DNA from: the human T2T-CHM13v2.0 reference genome, Homo sapiens
NCBI RefSeq assembly: GCF_009914755.1
Contig: NC_060926.1
Direction: 5' to 3' (one strand)
DNA length: 64,000 nucleotides
Shown here: positions 11,773 through 44,188 of the stretch, piece after piece
Position numbering within the stretch: the first letter of the stretch is position 1
How the letters are laid out: each line of letters opens with the position of its first letter
The notes under the pieces: model-generated
Told to the model about the DNA's origin: nothing
Databases searched by the model: none
The model's input: only the letters and a program-made list of their open reading frames with translations
Translations under genes and position numbers: made by a program

Positions 11773-11993
11773 TTTTTTTTTTTTTTTTATTATATTCTAA
11801 GTTTTAGGGTACATGTGCACATTGTGCAGGTTAGTTACATATGTATACATGTGCCATGCTGGTGTGCTGCACCCACTAATGTGTCATCTAGCATTAGGTA
11901 TATCTCCCAATGCTATCCCTCCCCCCTCCCCCGACCCCACCACAGTCCCCAGAGTGTGATATTCCCCTTCCTGTGTCCATGTGATCTCATTGT

Positions 11994-14900
11994 TCAATTC
12001 CCACCTATGAGTGAGAATATGCGGTGTTTGGTTTTTTGTTCTTGCGATAGTTTACTGAGAATGATGGTTTCCAATTTCATCCATGTCCCTACAAAGGATA
12101 TGAACTCATCATTTTTATGGCTGCATAGTATTCCATGGTGTATTTGTGCCACATTTTCTTAATCCAGTCTATCATTGTTGGACATTTGGGTTGGTTCCAA
12201 GTCTTTGCTATTGTGAATAGTGCCGCAATAAACATACGTGTGCATGTGTCTCTATAGCAGCATGATTTATAGTCCTTTGGGTATATACCCAGTAATGGGA
12301 TGGCTGGGTCAAATGGTATTTCTAGTTCTAGATCCCTGAGGAATCGCCACACTGACTTCCACAATGGTTGAACTAGTTTACAGTCCCACCAACAGTGTAA
12401 AAGTGTTCCTATTTCTCCACATCCTCTCCAGCACCTGTTGTTTCCTGACTTTTTAATGATTGCCATTCTAACTGGTGTGAGATGATATCTCATAGTGGTT
12501 TTGATTTGCATTTCTCTGATGGCCAGTGATGATGAGCATTTTTTCATGTGTTTTTTGGCTGCATAAATGTCTTCTTTTGAGAAGTGTCTGTTCATGTCCT
12601 TCGCCCACTTTTTGATGGGGTTGTTTGTTTTTTTCTTGTAAATTTGTTTGAGTTAATTGTAGATTCTGGATATTAGCCCTTTGTCAGATGAGTAGGTTGC
12701 AAAAATTTTCTCCCATGTTGTAGGTTGCCTGTTCACTCTGATGGTAGTTTCTTTTGCTGTGCAGAAGCTCTTTAGTTTAATTAGATCCCATTTGTCAATT
12801 TTGGCTTTTGTTGCCATTGCTTTTGGTGTTTTGGACATGAAGTCCTTGCCCACGCCTATGTCCTGAATGGTAATGCCTAGGTTTTCTTCTAGGGTTTTTA
12901 TGGTTTTAGGTCTAACGTTTAAATCTTTAATCCATCTTGAATTGATTTTTGTATAAGGTGTAAGGAAGGGATCCAGTTTCAGCTTTCTACATGTGGCTAG
13001 CCAGTTTTCCCAGCACCATTTATTAAATAGGGAATCCTTTCCCCATTGCTTGTTTTTCTCAGGTTTGTCAAAGATCAGATAGTTGTAGGTAAGCGGCGTT
13101 ATTTCTGAGGGCTCTGTTCTGTTCCATTGATCTATATCTCTGTTTTGGTACCAGTAGCGTGCTGTTTTGGTTACTGTAGCCTTGTAGTATAGTTTGAAGT
13201 CAGGTAGTGTGATGCCTCCAGCTTTGTTCTTTTGGCTTAGGATTGACTTGGCGATGCGGGCTCTTTTTTGGTTCCATATGAACTTTAAAGTAGTTTTTTC
13301 CAATTCTGTGAAGAAAGTCATTGGTAGCTTGATGGGGATGGCATTGAATCTGTAAATTACCTTGGGCAGTATGGCCATTTTCACGATATTGATTCTTCCT
13401 ACCCATGAGCATGGAATGTTCTTCCATTTGTTTGTATCCTCTTTTATTTCCTTGAGCAGTGGTTTGTAGTTCTCCTTGAAGAGGTCCTTCACATCCCTTG
13501 TAAGTTGGATTCCTAGGTATTTTATTCTCTTTGAAGCAATTGTGAATGGGAGTTCACTCATGATTTGGCTCTCTGTTTGTCTGTTGTTGGTGTATAGGAA
13601 TGCTTGTGATTTTTGTACATTGATTTTGTATCCTGAGACTTTGCTGAAGTTGCTTATCAGCTTAAGGAGATTTTGGGCTGAGACGATGGGGTTTTCTAGA
13701 TAAACAATCATGTCGTCTGCAAACAGGGACAATTTGACTTCCTCTTTTCCTAATTGAATACCCTTTATTTCCTTCTCCTGCCTGACTGCCCTGGCCAGAA
13801 CTTCCAACACTATGTTGAATAGGAGCGGTGAGAGAGGGCATCCCTGTCTTGTGCCAGTTTTCAAAGGGAATGCTTCCAGTTTTTGCCCATTCAGTATGAT
13901 ATTGGCTGTGGGTTTGTCATAGATAGCTCTTATTATTTTGAGATACGTCCCATCAATACCTAATTTATTGAGAGTTTTTAGCATGAAGGGTTGTTGAATT
14001 TTGTCAAAGGCTTTTTCTGCATCTATTGAGATAATCATGTGGTTTTTGTCTTTGGCTCTGTTTATATGCTGGATTACATTTATTGATTTGCGTATATTGA
14101 ACCAGCCTTGCATCCCAGGAATGAAGCCCACTTGATCATGGTGGATAAGCTTTTTGATGTGCTGCTGGATTCGGTTTGCCAGTATTTTATTGAGGATTTT
14201 TGCATCAATGTTCATCAAGGATATTGGTCTAAAATTCTCTTTTTTGGTTGTGTCTCTGCCCGGCTTTGGTATCAGAATGATGCTGGCCTCATAAAATGAG
14301 TTAGGGAGGATTCCCTCTTTTTCTATTGATTGGAATAGTTTCAGAAGGAATGGTACCAGTTCCTCCTTGTACCTCTGGTAGAATTCGGCTGTGAATCCAT
14401 CTGGTCCTGGACTCTTTTTGGTTGGTAAACTATTGATTATTGCCACAATTTCAGCTCCTGTTATTGGTCTATTCAGAGATTCAACTTCTTCCTGGTTTAG
14501 TCTTGGGAGAGTGTATGTGTCGAGGAATGTATCCATTTCTTCTAGATTTTCTAGTTTATTTGCGTAGAGGTGTTTGTAGTATTCTCTGATGGTAGTCTGT
14601 ATTTCTGTGGGATCGGTGGTGATATCCCCTTTATCATTTTTTATTGTGTCTATTTGATTCTTCTCTCTTTTTTTCTTTATTAGTCTTGCTAGCGGTCTAT
14701 CAATTTTGTTGATCCTTTCAAAAAACCAGCTCCTGGATTCATTGATTTTTTGAAGGGTTTTTTGTGTCTCTATTTCCTTCAGTTCTGCTCTGATTTTAGT
14801 TATTTCTTGCCTTCTGCTAGCTTTTGAATGTGTTTGCTCTTGCTTTTCTAGTTCTTTTAATTGTGATGTTAGGGTGTCAATTTTGGATCTTTCCTGCTTT

Positions 14901-15820
14901 CTCTTGTAGGCATTTAGTGCTATAAATTTCCCTGTACACACTGCTTTGAATGCGTCCCAGAGATTCTGGTATGTTGTGTCTTTGTTCTCGTTGGTTTCAA
15001 AGAACATCTTTATTTCTGCCTTCATTTCGTTATGTACCCAGTAGTCATTCAGGAGCAGGTTGTTCAGTTTCCATGTAGTTGAGCGGCTTTGAGTGAGATT
15101 CTTAATCCTGAGTTCTAGTTTGATTGCACTGTGGTCTGAGAGATAGTTTGTTATAATTTCTGTTCTTTTACATTTGCTGAGGAGAGCTTTACTTCCAAGT
15201 ATGTGGTCAATTTTGGAATAGGTGTGGTGTGGTGCTGAAAAAAATGTATATTCTGTTGATTTGGGGTGGAGAGTTCTGTAGATGTCTATTAGGTCTGCTT
15301 GGTGCAGAGCTGAGTTCAATTCCTGGGTATCCTTGTTGACTTTCTGTCTCGTTGATCTGTCTAATGTTGACAGTGGGGTGTTAAAGTCTCCCATTATTAA
15401 TGTGTGGGAGTCTAAGTCTCTTTGTAGGTCACTCAGGACTTGCTTTATGAATCTGGGTGCTCCTGTATTGGGTGCATAAATATTTAGGATAGTTAGCTCC
15501 TCTTGTTGAATTGATCCCTTTACCATTATGTAATGGCCTTCTTTGTGTCTTTTGATCTTTGTTGGTTTAAAGTCTGTTTTATCAGAGACTAGGATTGCAA
15601 CCCCTGCCTTTTTTTGTTTTCCATTGGCTTGGTAGATCTTCCTCCATCCTTTTATTTTGAGCCTATGTGTGTTTCTGCACGTGAGATGGGTTTCCTGAAT
15701 ACAGCACACTGATGGGTCTTGACTCTTTATCCAACTTGCCAGTCTGTGTCTTTTAATTGCAGAATTTAGTCCATTTATATTTAAAGTTAATATTGTTATG
15801 TGTGAATTTGATCCTGTCAT
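11994..15820 (-). pseudogene. L1-A ORF2 (endonuclease and reverse transcriptase), premature TAA after codon 1055 plus a later 1-bp deletion
   Basis: [14 protein letters not shown]..., FADD RT motif; stop at 12653-12655 (GAA>TAA); span 3827 nt against 3828 for an intact ORF2. Confidence 0.95.
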
Positions 15821-15883
15821 TATGATGTTAGCTGGTGATTTTGCTCATTAGTTGATGCAGTTTCTTCCTAGTCTCGATGGTCT

Positions 15884-42600: not shown

Positions 42601-43431
42601 GTTGGTTTCAAAGAACATCTTTATTTCTGCCTTCATTTCGTTATGTACCCAGTAGTCATTCAGGAGCAGGTTGTTCAGTTTCCATGTAGTTGAGCGGCTT
42701 TGAGTGAGATTCTTAATCCTGAGTTCTAGTTTGATTGCACTGTGGTCTGAGAGATAGTTTGTTATAATTTCTGTTCTTTTACATTTGCTGAGGAGAGCTT
42801 TACTTCCAAGTATGTGGTCAATTTTGGAATAGGTGTGGTGTGGTGCTGAAAAAAATGTATATTCTGTTGATTTGGGGTGGAGAGTTCTGTAGATGTCTAT
42901 TAGGTCCACTTGGTGCAGAGCTGAGTTCAATTCCTGGGTATCCTTGTTGACTTTCTGTCTCGTTGATCTGTCTAATGTTGACAATGGGGTGTTAAAGTCT
43001 CCCATTATTAATGTGTGGGAGTCTAAGTCTCTTTGTAGGTCACTCAGGACTTGCTTTATGAATCTGGGTGCTCCTGTATTGGGTGCATATATATTTAGGA
43101 TAGTTAGCTCCTCTTGTTGAATTGATCCCTTTACCATTATGTAATGGCCTTCTTTGTCTCTTCTGATCTTTGTTGGTTTAAAGTCTGTTTTATCAGAGAC
43201 TAGGATTGCAACCCCTGCCTTTTTTTGTTTTCCATTGGCTTGGTAGATCTTCCTCCATCCTTTTATTTTGAGCCTATGTGTGTCTCTGCACGTGAGATGG
43301 GTTTCCTGAATACAGCACACTGATGGGTCTTGACTCTTTATCCAACTTGCCAGTCTGTGTCTTTTAATTGGAGAATTTAGTCCATTTACATTTAAAGTTA
43401 ATATTGTTATGTGTGAATTTGATCCTGTCAT
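39602..43431 (-). pseudogene. L1-B ORF2, same premature TAA (40264-40266) plus a 2-bp TA insertion near 39893
   Basis: 1055-aa ORF almost identical to that of L1-A; span 3830 nt. Confidence 0.93.
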
Positions 43432-43494
43432 TATGATGTTAGCTGGTGATTTTGCTCGTTAGTTGATGCAGTTTCTTCCTAGTCTCGATGGTCT

Positions 43495-44188
43495 TTACAT
43501 TTTGGCATGATTTTGCAGCGGCTGGTACCGGTTGTTCCTTTCCATGTTTAGCGCTTCCTTCAGGAGCTCTTTTAGGGCAGGCCTGGTGGTGACAAAATCT
43601 CTCAGCATTTGCTTGTCTATAAAGTATTTTATTTCTCCTTCACTTATGAAGCTTAGTTTGGCTGGATATGAAATTCTGGGTTGAAAATTCTTTTCTTTAA
43701 GAATGTTGAATATTGGCCCCCACTCTCTTCTGGCTTGTAGGGTTTCTGCCGAGAGATCCGCTGTTAGTCTGATGGGCTTCCCTTTGTGGGTAACCTGACC
43801 TTTCTCTCTGGCTGCCCTTAACATTTTTTCCTTCATTTCTACTTTGGCGAATCTGACAATTATGTGTCTTGGAGTTGCTCTTCTCGAGGAGTATCTTTGT
43901 GGCGTTCTCTGTATTTCCTGAATCTGAATGTTGGGCTGCCTTGCTAGATTGGGGAAGTTCTCCTGGATGATATCCTGCAGAGTGTTTTCCAACTTGGTTC
44001 CATTCTCCCCATCACTTTCAGAGTGACACCAATGAGACGTAGATTTGGTCCTTTCACATAGTCCCATATTTCTTGGAGGCTTTGCTTGTTTCTTTTTATT
44101 CTTTTTTCTCTAAACTTCCCTTCTCGCTTCATTTCATTCACTTCATCTTCCATCGCTGATAGCCTTTCTTCCAGTTGATCGCATCGGC
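43495..44188 (-). pseudogene. L1-B partial ORF1 with the same +2 frameshift (about 44022-44026)
   Basis: tcactttcagAGTGACaccaatgag is identical to L1-A 16401-16425. Confidence 0.9.

What the first reader, a model, noticed from the sequence alone, without database searches (positions are those of the whole stretch)
11773..44188. Two independently inserted L1s of different age share the same inactivating mutations: gene conversion across exon 9
Seen: each L1 has its own TSD, so these are two separate insertions. The 3' diagnostics differ (L1-A ACA/G, Ta; L1-B GAG/A, pre-L1HS). Yet both carry the same ORF2 GAA>TAA (12655/40266), the same +2 ORF1 frameshift (about 16411/44022) and the same non-consensus residues (CTGKF, ITGAE, ARAVRQ, TARYWY, ITPLTY, WLATC, RNKQS). 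By eye I find one mismatch (14031/41642) between about 12290 and 14737; differences cluster at the ends. L1-B has L1HS-like residues centrally (EMDTF, RAKDK, IGVGK, PTTWE) but older ones elsewhere (NVNG, NAHKR, THKG). Known: L1 cis-preference makes inheriting two null lesions from a source element unlikely. Inference: repeated and probably two-way conversion made both elements mosaics, may have inactivated the young L1, and keeps identity high enough to sustain NAHR.
Basis: partly seen in the sequence, partly recalled or inferred. Interest (0 to 1): 0.8.

Follow-up and report, generated by a model that had tools for sequence, protein, structure and literature searches.

The report
Old L1 overwrote young L1 at DIS3L2
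Two LINE-1 repeats on either side of DIS3L2 exon 9 share a 2.5-kb almost identical stretch because the older copy overwrote the middle of the younger one, and this stretch is a likely substrate for the known disease-causing deletions of that exon.

Summary
L1-A (11773-17811, minus strand, full length) and L1-B (39383-44188, minus, 5'-truncated) differ at 1 of 2456 bases in 12282-14737. They differ at 16 substitutions and 2 indels in the 3' 490 bp, and at 26 substitutions in 14738-16577. Both carry the ORF2 stop and the ORF1 +2 frameshift.

Exchange between A and B is well supported. However, the shared tract carries L1PA2-type bases at every site that separates GAG/A copies from ACA/ACG copies. 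It also carries two markers of B's own sub-lineage. A's two ends are Ta-like. So A is the mosaic and B the likely donor. I see no evidence of L1HS sequence in B.

New here: the frameshift motif occurs only three times in the whole genome. The copies are A, B and a third, older, inverted L1 ("C") about 175 kb beyond B. B's last 400 bp group with C. The likely chain is C to B to A.

A also has its own -1 frameshift outside the tract and has no recognisable TSD.

This is a clear new example of a known process, at a known NAHR hotspot.

The parts
11773..17811 (-). L1-A, full-length L1. The 3' ~490 bp and the 5' ~2.5 kb are L1HS/Ta-like; the middle is L1PA2-like. No recognisable TSD.
39383..44188 (-). 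L1-B, a 5'-truncated (within ORF1) GAG/A (L1PA2-type) L1 inserted into an Alu, with a perfect ~32-bp TSD.
12282..14737 (-). Tract 1 in A: identical to B 39893-42348 except at 14031. Marker-defined minimum 12542-14597, maximum 12253-14907. Carries GAG/A-type states and B-sublineage markers.
12653..12655 (-). Premature TAA in ORF2 of A (codon 1056); the same stop is at 40264-40266 in B. Absent from L1-C, 27 of 27 ACA copies and 8 of 8 GAG/A copies covering the site.
14909..15295 (-). Tract 2 in A: identical to B, with B-type markers at 14934, 14975 and 15199. Separated from tract 1 by 14908, where A keeps its own state.
16359..16529 (-). Tract 3 in A (maximum extent): the ORF1 patch holding the +2 frameshift (16411-16414) and substitutions at 16398, 16423, 16476 and 16477. 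The same patch is at 43970-44140 in B.
43780..44188 (-). The 5'-terminal ~400 bp of B. This part groups with L1-C (100/99) and carries older-type and C-specific bases. Read as an old C-to-B tract. L1-C itself lies OUTSIDE the window, so it cannot be given a row of its own: chr2:232,841,964-232,847,982, which is window 217,964-223,982, plus strand. It is full-length, GAG/A with older-subfamily states, inverted relative to A and B, and has its own short TSD. It is the only other copy in the genome with the frameshift motif (window 219,350-219,371). It is held as locus L081.
12112..12116 (-). A-specific -1 frameshift in ORF2, a run of 5 A where 31 of 32 other copies have 6. It lies outside the exchanged tracts.
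26038..26211 (+). DIS3L2 exon 9, between the two directly repeated L1s (copy-to-copy offset 27,611 bp). MIR562 (35232-35326) lies in the same interval.
   Evidence: hub annotation

Best explanation
Non-allelic (interlocus) gene conversion ran from older to younger L1 copies.

- L1-B is an L1PA2-type, 5'-truncated insertion in DIS3L2 intron 9.
- L1-A is a later, full-length Ta-type insertion in intron 8, 27.6 kb away in the same orientation.
- Recently, on the human lineage, homologous repair used B as template and overwrote the middle of A. The overwritten parts are a tract of about 2.1-2.7 kb, a second one of about 0.3-0.6 kb, and an 80-170 bp patch in ORF1. This may have been one long heteroduplex repaired in patches or several separate events.
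- The repair carried B's ORF2 stop and B's ORF1 +2 frameshift into A.
- Much earlier, B's own 5' end had been overwritten from L1-C, an older inverted L1 about 175 kb away. The frameshift most likely arose in C. So the chain is C to B to A.
- The outcome is 1749 + 706 bp of perfect identity in direct repeat around exon 9. This is the likely crossover substrate for the recurrent exon 9 deletions.

Shown: the identity pattern, the mosaic structure of A, and the three-copy restriction of the frameshift.
Inferred: the directions, the order of events, the timing and the link to deletion breakpoints.
For: (1) Clustering of differences. 1 of 43 substitutions lies in the central 2456 bp (P = 1.7e-12; 0 of 100,000 permutations reach the 1756-bp clean run).

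(2) Genome-wide neighbours.
- For the centre, B is 1 mismatch from A. The next best of 38 further listed copies scores 90 bits lower, about 20 mismatches by my arithmetic.
- For A's 3' 486 nt, all 39 other listed places are closer than B, and 27 of 27 typed are ACA/G.
- For B's 3' 489 nt, 39 other places are closer than A.
- For A's 14738-16577, 39 of 39 other listed places are closer than B, and all lack the 2 extra bases.

(3) Trees.
- In the 3' segment, A sits with ACA copies (92/91) and B sits among GAG copies. A+B as one clade is rejected (AU p = 1e-5).
- In the centre, A+B are sisters (99/97*) outside the ACA/ACG clade (97/95*). A+B grouped with ACA copies is rejected (p = 3e-4 with 13 rows; p = 8e-5 with 17 rows).

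(4) Direction, from site states.
- GAG/A-type states in both A and B at 12542 (ACA copies 0/29; GAG/A copies 8/8), 13089 (0/21; 7/7), 13098 (2/21; 6/7), 13436 (2/21; 7/7), 14455-14456 (0/3; 7/7) and 14975 (0/3; 7/7).
- B-sublineage markers 13092 A and 13597 G are present in 4 of 4 GAG copies picked only by likeness to B's 3' end, in 0 of 3 other GAG/A copies, and in 0 of 21 (13092) and 0 of 19 (13597) ACA copies.

(5) Triplet test (a real Ta copy, B, child A). There is one block of B-like sites; 0 of 20,000 shuffles reach it for three Ta copies, and 2 of 20,000 for an ACG copy.

(6) The third copy.
- The frameshift motif (up to 1 mismatch allowed) occurs 3 times in 3.1 Gb, in A, B and C, all within about 205 kb.
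- In 16169-16577, B+C are sisters (100/99*) and A+B+C are set apart from 10 other copies (97/96*).
- There B carries older-type states that are common in 8 older copies, plus C-specific bases. A shares 16423 G with B only.
- Elsewhere C carries older-subfamily states that B lacks.
Against: - Only one haplotype was available. Neither polymorphism nor an ape orthologue could be examined.
- The comparison copies were chosen by similarity searches that score only the best candidates, not at random. Subfamily labels rest on the recalled ACA/ACG/GAG 3'UTR rule.
- Individual GAG/A-type states occur in some ACG copies (L080 at 12542; L071 at 14455-14456).
- The AU test does not reject A+B as sister to, or inside, the whole ACA/ACG clade (p = 0.21; p = 0.05).
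- In the centre tree the four B-kin copies do not resolve as a clade with A+B.
- The density of shared private variants in the tract (about 0.4%) fits A's or B's own rate equally well, so it says nothing about direction.
- A lacks a TSD, so its insertion history is not fully understood.
- The C-to-B direction rests on about a dozen sites in 409 bp.
- The stop variant is recurrent in the genome (37 other copies), so on its own it is weak evidence.
Confidence: 0.75

Rival explanations
1. Conversion ran both ways, B's centre is L1HS sequence received from A, and the lesions arose in either copy.
For: A and B are nearly identical in the centre. The nearest other copies to the centre include Ta elements at about 99.2% identity. 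The density of shared private variants (about 0.4%) is close to A's own private rate.
Against: No site in the centre shows an L1HS-specific state in A or B. All 6 separating sites show the GAG/A state. The B-sublineage markers 13092 and 13597 are in the tract. The AU test rejects the centre grouping with ACA copies. The 'L1HS-like' peptide motifs are equally present in GAG/A copies.
Confidence: 0.1
2. Shared descent. A, B and C are copies of one defective, trans-mobilised source lineage that already carried the frameshift and the stop.
For: The stop 27-mer is found in 37 other copies. Three copies share the frameshift.
Against: The frameshift is confined to three copies within about 205 kb of one chromosome, out of 3.1 Gb. 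The three copies belong to three different subfamily grades at their unexchanged parts. Identity between A and B is patchy, and A+B as a clade is rejected in the 3' segment. The copies sharing the stop range from 94 to 99% identity to A and are of mixed type. That fits independent hits at one site among tens of thousands of copies.
Confidence: 0.03
3. Assembly or polishing artefact. Reads from one L1 were used to correct the other, creating false identity.
For: Only one assembly was seen, and near-identical repeats are where such errors occur.
Against: The tract ends coincide with switches of subfamily state, and A keeps its own state at 14908 between two shared blocks. The single difference at 14031 survives inside the tract. 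Both copies have unique flanks within the reach of long reads. Clinical papers independently describe two homologous 5-6 kb L1s that mediate recurrent deletion (PMC9177240 and PMC13158626, passages read).
Confidence: 0.04
4. Crossover history rather than simple conversion. Cycles of unequal crossing-over (duplication, then deletion) between A and B left a hybrid element at A's position.
For: This pair is known to undergo NAHR (papers above). Crossovers and conversions share intermediates.
Against: A has A-type sequence on both sides of the tract, and a second and third separate patch. That would need several precisely placed crossovers. No extra copy of the interval is present.
Confidence: 0.08

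Closest known systems
NAHR between the two LINE-1s flanking DIS3L2 exon 9 (Higashimoto et al. 2013, Eur J Hum Genet; seen only as a citation and title; not held)
   Same: The same two elements. They are direct repeats around exon 9. The deletion is recurrent and not from one founder (PMC13158626, passages). It is present on 11 of 21,364 alleles in gnomAD-SV (PMC9177240, passage).
   Different: Those reports concern crossover (deletion). The passages and titles I could see do not mention sequence exchange between the two L1s, its direction, or a third L1.
Gene conversion between LINE-1 copies. Examples: repair of a double-strand break in a LINE using other endogenous LINEs (Tremblay et al. 2000, cited in PMC1920257); an intrachromosomal conversion patch inside an L1 (locus NCLI34 in PMC1920257, passage read); 35 recombinant loci among 2,267 full-length L1 sites in pangenome assemblies (PMC13192797, methods passage read)
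   Same: Non-reciprocal copying between dispersed L1s on one chromosome, giving mosaic elements whose parts belong to different subfamilies.
   Different: Here donor and recipient are both identified, 27.6 kb apart, and the tract is long (over 2 kb). Two reading-frame lesions were carried into a Ta-type copy, and a third copy links in. I could not check whether this locus is among the 35, because the supplements are closed.
LINE-LINE NAHR substrates genome-wide (Startek et al. 2015, PMC4344489; abstract and passages read)
   Same: The pair meets their criteria (over 4 kb aligned, over 96% identity, direct orientation, under 10 Mb apart). They note 15 cases with perfect-identity segments of 2.4 +/- 0.7 kb at breakpoints, and suggest that a sub-fragment of higher identity mediates the event.
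   Different: They do not ask why such sub-fragments exist; 'gene conversion' occurs 0 times in the main text. Here the sub-fragment is explained as a conversion tract.

Membership tests
Interlocus (non-allelic) gene conversion between dispersed repeats | The two copies are independent insertions, not a segmental duplication | tested here: met
   Homology stops at the L1 ends. B has its own 32-bp TSD in an Alu. A extends 1.2 kb further 5'. However, A shows no TSD.
Interlocus (non-allelic) gene conversion between dispersed repeats | A tract of much higher identity bounded by normal divergence | tested here: met
   1 difference in 2456 bp, against 16 substitutions in about 490 bp and 26 in 1840 bp. 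P = 1.7e-12.
Interlocus (non-allelic) gene conversion between dispersed repeats | Phylogenetic incongruence between tract and flanks | tested here: met
   Trees and AU tests; triplet test.
Interlocus (non-allelic) gene conversion between dispersed repeats | Non-reciprocal: the donor keeps its lineage and the recipient changes | tested here: inconclusive
   The tract carries GAG/A-type and B-sublineage states concordant with B's flanks. Without an outgroup or other haplotypes the direction remains an inference.
Interlocus (non-allelic) gene conversion between dispersed repeats | The pre-conversion state is seen in an orthologue or in other haplotypes | not testable with these tools
   No ape genome or second human assembly was available.
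L1 Ta subfamily (for L1-A) | ACA and G at the two 3'UTR diagnostic places (rule recalled, not from a call) | tested here: met
   A also has the base at 12099 seen in 30 of 30 ACA copies and in 0 of 3 ACG copies.
L1 Ta subfamily (for L1-A) | Ta-type sequence along the whole element | tested here: not met
   The centre is excluded from the ACA group (AU p = 8e-5). The 5' 1.2 kb and 15296-16168 are L1HS-like.
L1PA2 (for L1-B) | GAG/A at the 3'UTR places, and grouping with other GAG/A copies outside the ACA/ACG clade | tested here: met
   The exception is the last ~400 bp, which group with L1-C.
Trans-mobilised defective L1 lineage | The same lesions in many unlinked copies | tested here: not met
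   The frameshift motif has 3 places genome-wide, all local. The stop is recurrent (39 places), but in copies of mixed type and age.
LINE-LINE NAHR substrate | Direct orientation, over 4 kb aligned at over 96% identity, flanking the deleted segment | tested here: met
   4806 columns at 98.96%, both copies on the minus strand, with exon 9 at 26038-26211 between them (hub annotation). Criteria from PMC4344489.
LINE-LINE NAHR substrate | Patient breakpoints fall in the shared sequence | not testable with these tools
   The breakpoint paper is not held.

The most novel reading that the evidence does not exclude
A relay of gene conversions among three L1s of three ages, within about 205 kb, passed an ORF1 frameshift from an old L1PA3-like copy to an L1PA2 copy and then into a Ta copy. 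So dead neighbours can disable a young L1 without any new mutation. The last step is recent enough (1 difference in 2456 bp) that the 2.5-kb identity tract may still be polymorphic in people. If so, carriers would be at higher risk of the DIS3L2 exon 9 deletion than non-carriers.
Probability: 0.3. Interest if true: 0.7.

Novelty: new member of a known kind. Interest (0 to 1): 0.5.

Why it matters
- Deletion of DIS3L2 exon 9 causes Perlman syndrome when homozygous and predisposes to Wilms tumour when heterozygous. It recurs without a founder (PMC13158626, passages) and sits on about 0.05% of alleles (PMC9177240, passage). It lowers height by 0.44 s.d. in carriers (bioRxiv 10.1101/2021.10.21.465308, passage).
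- The work here explains why this L1 pair is such a good substrate. The identity is not what two insertions of different age would have; it was created by conversion.
- If the tract varies between haplotypes, deletion risk should vary with it. That is directly testable in pangenome data.
- For L1 biology, this is a clean, polarised case. An old inactive copy overwrote a young one and carried reading-frame lesions into it.

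Tried and rejected
- The first panel (L003-L030) looked as if all older L1s carried the stop (27 of 27). That was a selection effect: the search picks candidates by rare words, so it picked copies that happen to carry that variant. 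The exact 27-mer count (39) and the mixed ages of those copies fit independent hits.
- I first read the centre as L1HS sequence given by A to B, because the nearest genome-wide hits include Ta copies. Site-by-site typing reversed that reading.
- I tried the density of private variants as a guide to direction. It fits both copies, so I dropped it.
- The double variant at 13157/13159 is not unique to A and B (4 exact places), so it is not used as proof.
- Two pairs of neighbouring L1s elsewhere that share the stop variant (chr1, chr5) show no long identity tract.
- The paper by Higashimoto et al. could not be read. The supplement of PMC4344489 could not be searched.
After that I searched without loci and fetched only short chosen stretches.

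Full report
**Anatomy**

The window is chr2:232,624,001-232,688,000 of T2T-CHM13 (hub note).
- L1-A lies on the minus strand at 11773-17811. It runs from a 5'UTR start to a poly(A) tail.
- L1-B lies on the minus strand at 39383-44188. It is truncated inside ORF1 and sits in an Alu, with a perfect target-site duplication of about 32 bp.
- DIS3L2 exon 9 (26038-26211) and MIR562 lie between the two copies. The copy-to-copy offset is 27,611 bp.
- A has no recognisable target-site duplication; the best local match between its flanks is 5 nt.

**The observation**

A and B align over 4806 columns at 98.96% identity. The differences are very unevenly placed:

| Segment | Differences |
|---|---|
| 11795-12281 | 16 substitutions, 2 indels |
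| 12282-14737 | 1 substitution (14031/41642) |
| 14738-16577 | 26 substitutions |

With 43 substitutions in 4787 bp, finding at most 1 in the central 51% of the length has binomial P = 1.7e-12. No permutation out of 100,000 gives a clean run as long as the 1756 bp observed.

Other points that hold:
- Both copies have TAA as codon 1056 of ORF2, at 12653-12655 and 40264-40266.
- Both copies have the same complex +2 change in ORF1 at 16411-16414, which 10 of 10 comparison copies lack.
- The 3'UTR reads ACA/G in A and GAG/A in B. That these triplets mark Ta and L1PA2-or-older is recalled knowledge, not a tool result.

**Genome-wide neighbours**

The window's own assembly could be searched.

| Query | Result |
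|---|---|
| A's 3' 486 nt | 39 other places listed at 99%; B not among the 40 listed |
| (typing of those hits) | of 29 loci fetched, 27 could be typed and all 27 are ACA/G; 2 aligned elsewhere and were dropped |
| B's 3' 489 nt | 39 other places at 99%; A not among them |
| Centre, 2456 nt | B scores 5 bits below self; the next best copy scores 90 bits below, about 20 mismatches by my arithmetic |
| A's 14738-16577 | 39 of 39 other listed places score above B; all span 1838 nt, not 1840, so they lack the two extra bases |
| B's 14738-16577 equivalent | A is the best hit in the genome |

These searches score only the best 40 candidates. They give lower bounds and are not random samples.

**Which copy is the mosaic**

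I fetched ten elements covering 11775-16577:
- three ACA/G copies;
- three ACG-like copies;
- one GAG/G copy;
- three GAG/A copies.

Later I fetched eight GAG copies chosen only because their 3' end resembles B's 3' end. Four of these reach through the centre.

The table gives the number of copies that carry the state seen in A and B.

| Site | ACA copies | GAG/A copies |
|---|---|---|
| 12542 | 0/29 | 8/8 |
| 13089 | 0/21 | 7/7 |
| 13098 | 2/21 | 6/7 |
| 13436 | 2/21 | 7/7 |
| 14455-14456 | 0/3 | 7/7 |
| 14975 | 0/3 | 7/7 |

- So at every site in the centre that separates GAG/A copies from ACA and ACG copies, A and B both carry the GAG/A state. No site in the centre shows an ACA/ACG-specific state in A or B.
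- Two variants that first looked private to A and B turned out to be markers of B's sub-lineage. 13092 A and 13597 G are present in 4 of 4 of the copies picked for likeness to B's unconverted 3' end. They are absent from 3 of 3 other GAG/A copies and from the ACA copies (0 of 21 at 13092; 0 of 19 at 13597).
- A's own 3' 490 bp has every ACA-type state, including one at 12099 seen in 30 of 30 ACA copies and 0 of 3 ACG copies.
- A's 15296-16168 groups with the young copies (88/89). The best matches to A's 5' 1.2 kb include the 5' ends of elements typed as ACA/G.

Tree results agree.
- 3' segment: A is inside the ACA group (92/91) and B is among GAG copies. A+B as one clade is rejected (AU p = 1e-5).
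- Centre: A+B are sisters (99/97*) and lie outside the ACA/ACG clade (97/95*). Holding A+B with the ACA copies is rejected (p = 3e-4 with 13 rows; p = 8e-5 with 17 rows).
- Against my reading: holding A+B with the whole ACA/ACG/GAG-G group is not rejected (p = 0.21; p = 0.05). The four B-kin copies do not form a resolved clade with A+B.

A triplet test took a real Ta copy and B as parents and A as child. It shows one long block of B-like sites plus two short ones. No shuffle out of 20,000 reaches the block for each of three Ta copies, and 2 of 20,000 do for an ACG copy.

Conclusion: A is a Ta-type element whose middle was replaced by B-type sequence. B needs no L1HS input to be explained.

**Tract map in A**

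- **Tract 1.** Minimum 12542-14597, maximum 12253-14907.
- **Interruption at 14908.** A keeps its own state there. 14738 and 14906 are B-only changes.
- **Tract 2.** Markers at 14934, 14975 and 15199; maximum 14909-15478.
- **A-type stretch.** A-type sequence follows up to 16358.
- **Tract 3.** Markers at 16398, the +2 change, 16423, 16476 and 16477; maximum 16359-16529.
- **A-type again** from 16530.

Either one long heteroduplex repaired in patches or several separate events would give this map.

**A third participant**

- Searching with B's last 419 nt found a copy closer to B than A is. It lies at chr2:232,843,195-232,843,613 on the opposite strand and keeps the two extra bases. A came next, and 37 other places were weaker and 2-4 nt shorter.
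- The frameshift motif, with up to one mismatch allowed, occurs only three times in 3.1 Gb: in A, B and this copy, L1-C.
- L1-C (chr2:232,841,964-232,847,982; window 217,964-223,982, so outside the window) is full length and inverted relative to A and B. It has its own short target-site duplication. It is 96.3% identical to A and 97.1% to B.
- Through most of its length C carries older-subfamily states that B lacks (27 of 80 C-specific positions in 11796-14737 are common in the older panel).
- In 16169-16577, however, B and C are sisters (100/99*), and A+B+C stand apart from ten other copies (97/96*).
- In that stretch B has states common in eight older copies (for example 16169, 16176, 16398, 16543). 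It also has bases seen only in B and C (16229, 16237, 16324, 16551). A shares 16423 G with B alone and lacks the C-only bases.
- The simplest reading is an old C-to-B tract (7 differences in 409 bp between B and C), followed by a recent B-to-A patch.
- A few further variants are shared by A, B and C only (14120, 14597, 14934), which suggests more small exchanges.

**The lesions**

- The ORF2 stop lies in tract 1. It is absent from C, from 27 of 27 ACA copies and from 8 of 8 GAG/A copies covering the site.
- The same 27-mer occurs in 37 other copies. Those in hand are 94-99% identical to A and of mixed type. I read this as independent hits at one site among tens of thousands of copies. The stop alone would therefore prove nothing.
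- The ORF1 frameshift lies in tract 3.
- A also has its own -1 frameshift: a run of five A at 12112-12116 where 31 of 32 other copies have six.
- So conversion did bring two lesions into A. Whether A was still intact at that time cannot be told.
- B has its own +2 insertion at 39891-39892.

**Timing (inference)**

One difference in 2456 bp points to a few hundred thousand years since the last exchange, using recalled human mutation rates of 0.5-1e-9 per site per year. The Poisson range is very wide. Repeated exchange would look the same.

**Known context**

- Exon 9 deletions are attributed to recombination between these two L1s (Higashimoto et al. 2013; title and citations only).
- They recur without a common founder (PMC13158626, passages).
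- They are on 11 of 21,364 alleles in gnomAD-SV (PMC9177240, passage).
- They lower height in heterozygotes (bioRxiv 10.1101/2021.10.21.465308, passage).
- L1-to-L1 conversion is a known process (passages of PMC1920257). A pangenome preprint flags 35 recombinant loci among 2,267 full-length L1 sites (PMC13192797, methods passage). Its supplements are closed, so I cannot say whether L1-A is one of them.
- A search for DIS3L2 together with 'gene conversion' returned 8 papers, none of which by title or abstract concerns these L1s.
- Startek et al. (PMC4344489) note long perfect-identity segments at some LINE-LINE breakpoints, but the term 'gene conversion' does not occur in their main text.

**Verdict**

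The finding is real and statistically strong. The mechanism class (non-allelic gene conversion) is right. It is a new, unusually clear member of a known kind, at a clinically relevant hotspot.

Noticed in passing
window 11730-11790 and 17812-17871: L1-A, although Ta-like at both ends, has no recognisable target-site duplication (best flank match 5 nt). It may have inserted with a target-site deletion or by a non-classical route, or a flank may have been rearranged.
   Followed up: partly
window 12112-12116: A-specific -1 frameshift in a run of A near the end of ORF2 (5 A where 31 of 32 other copies have 6). This is a third lesion, outside the exchanged tracts.
   Followed up: yes
G000:C11:94,153,798-94,244,341: Seventeen hits to the L1 ORF1 segment at a regular spacing of 5,633 bp on chr11. 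This is a tandem array of L1-containing units.
   Followed up: no
G000:C1:115,026,343 and 115,164,421; C5:131,256,051, 131,272,531 and 131,341,711: Copies carrying the same ORF2 stop 27-mer cluster. There are 4 pairs within 140 kb among 37 copies, far more than a naive even spread would give by my arithmetic. L1s themselves cluster, though. The two pairs in hand (L004/L016, L005/L025) show no long identity tract.
   Followed up: partly
L003 + L063 + L073 (G000:C2:172,802,658-172,808,233): An element with the mixed 3'UTR type GAG/G that groups with ACG/ACA copies in the centre. It also carries the stop variant. It looks like an intermediate between L1PA2 and L1HS.
   Followed up: partly
window 39330-39400: L1-B's tail is a compound (TAA)n / (TTAA)n microsatellite. 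Its target-site duplication, at about 32 bp, is unusually long and lies at the start of an Alu.
   Followed up: no
window 35232-35326: MIR562 lies between the two L1s, so the recurrent exon 9 deletion should remove it as well.
   Followed up: no
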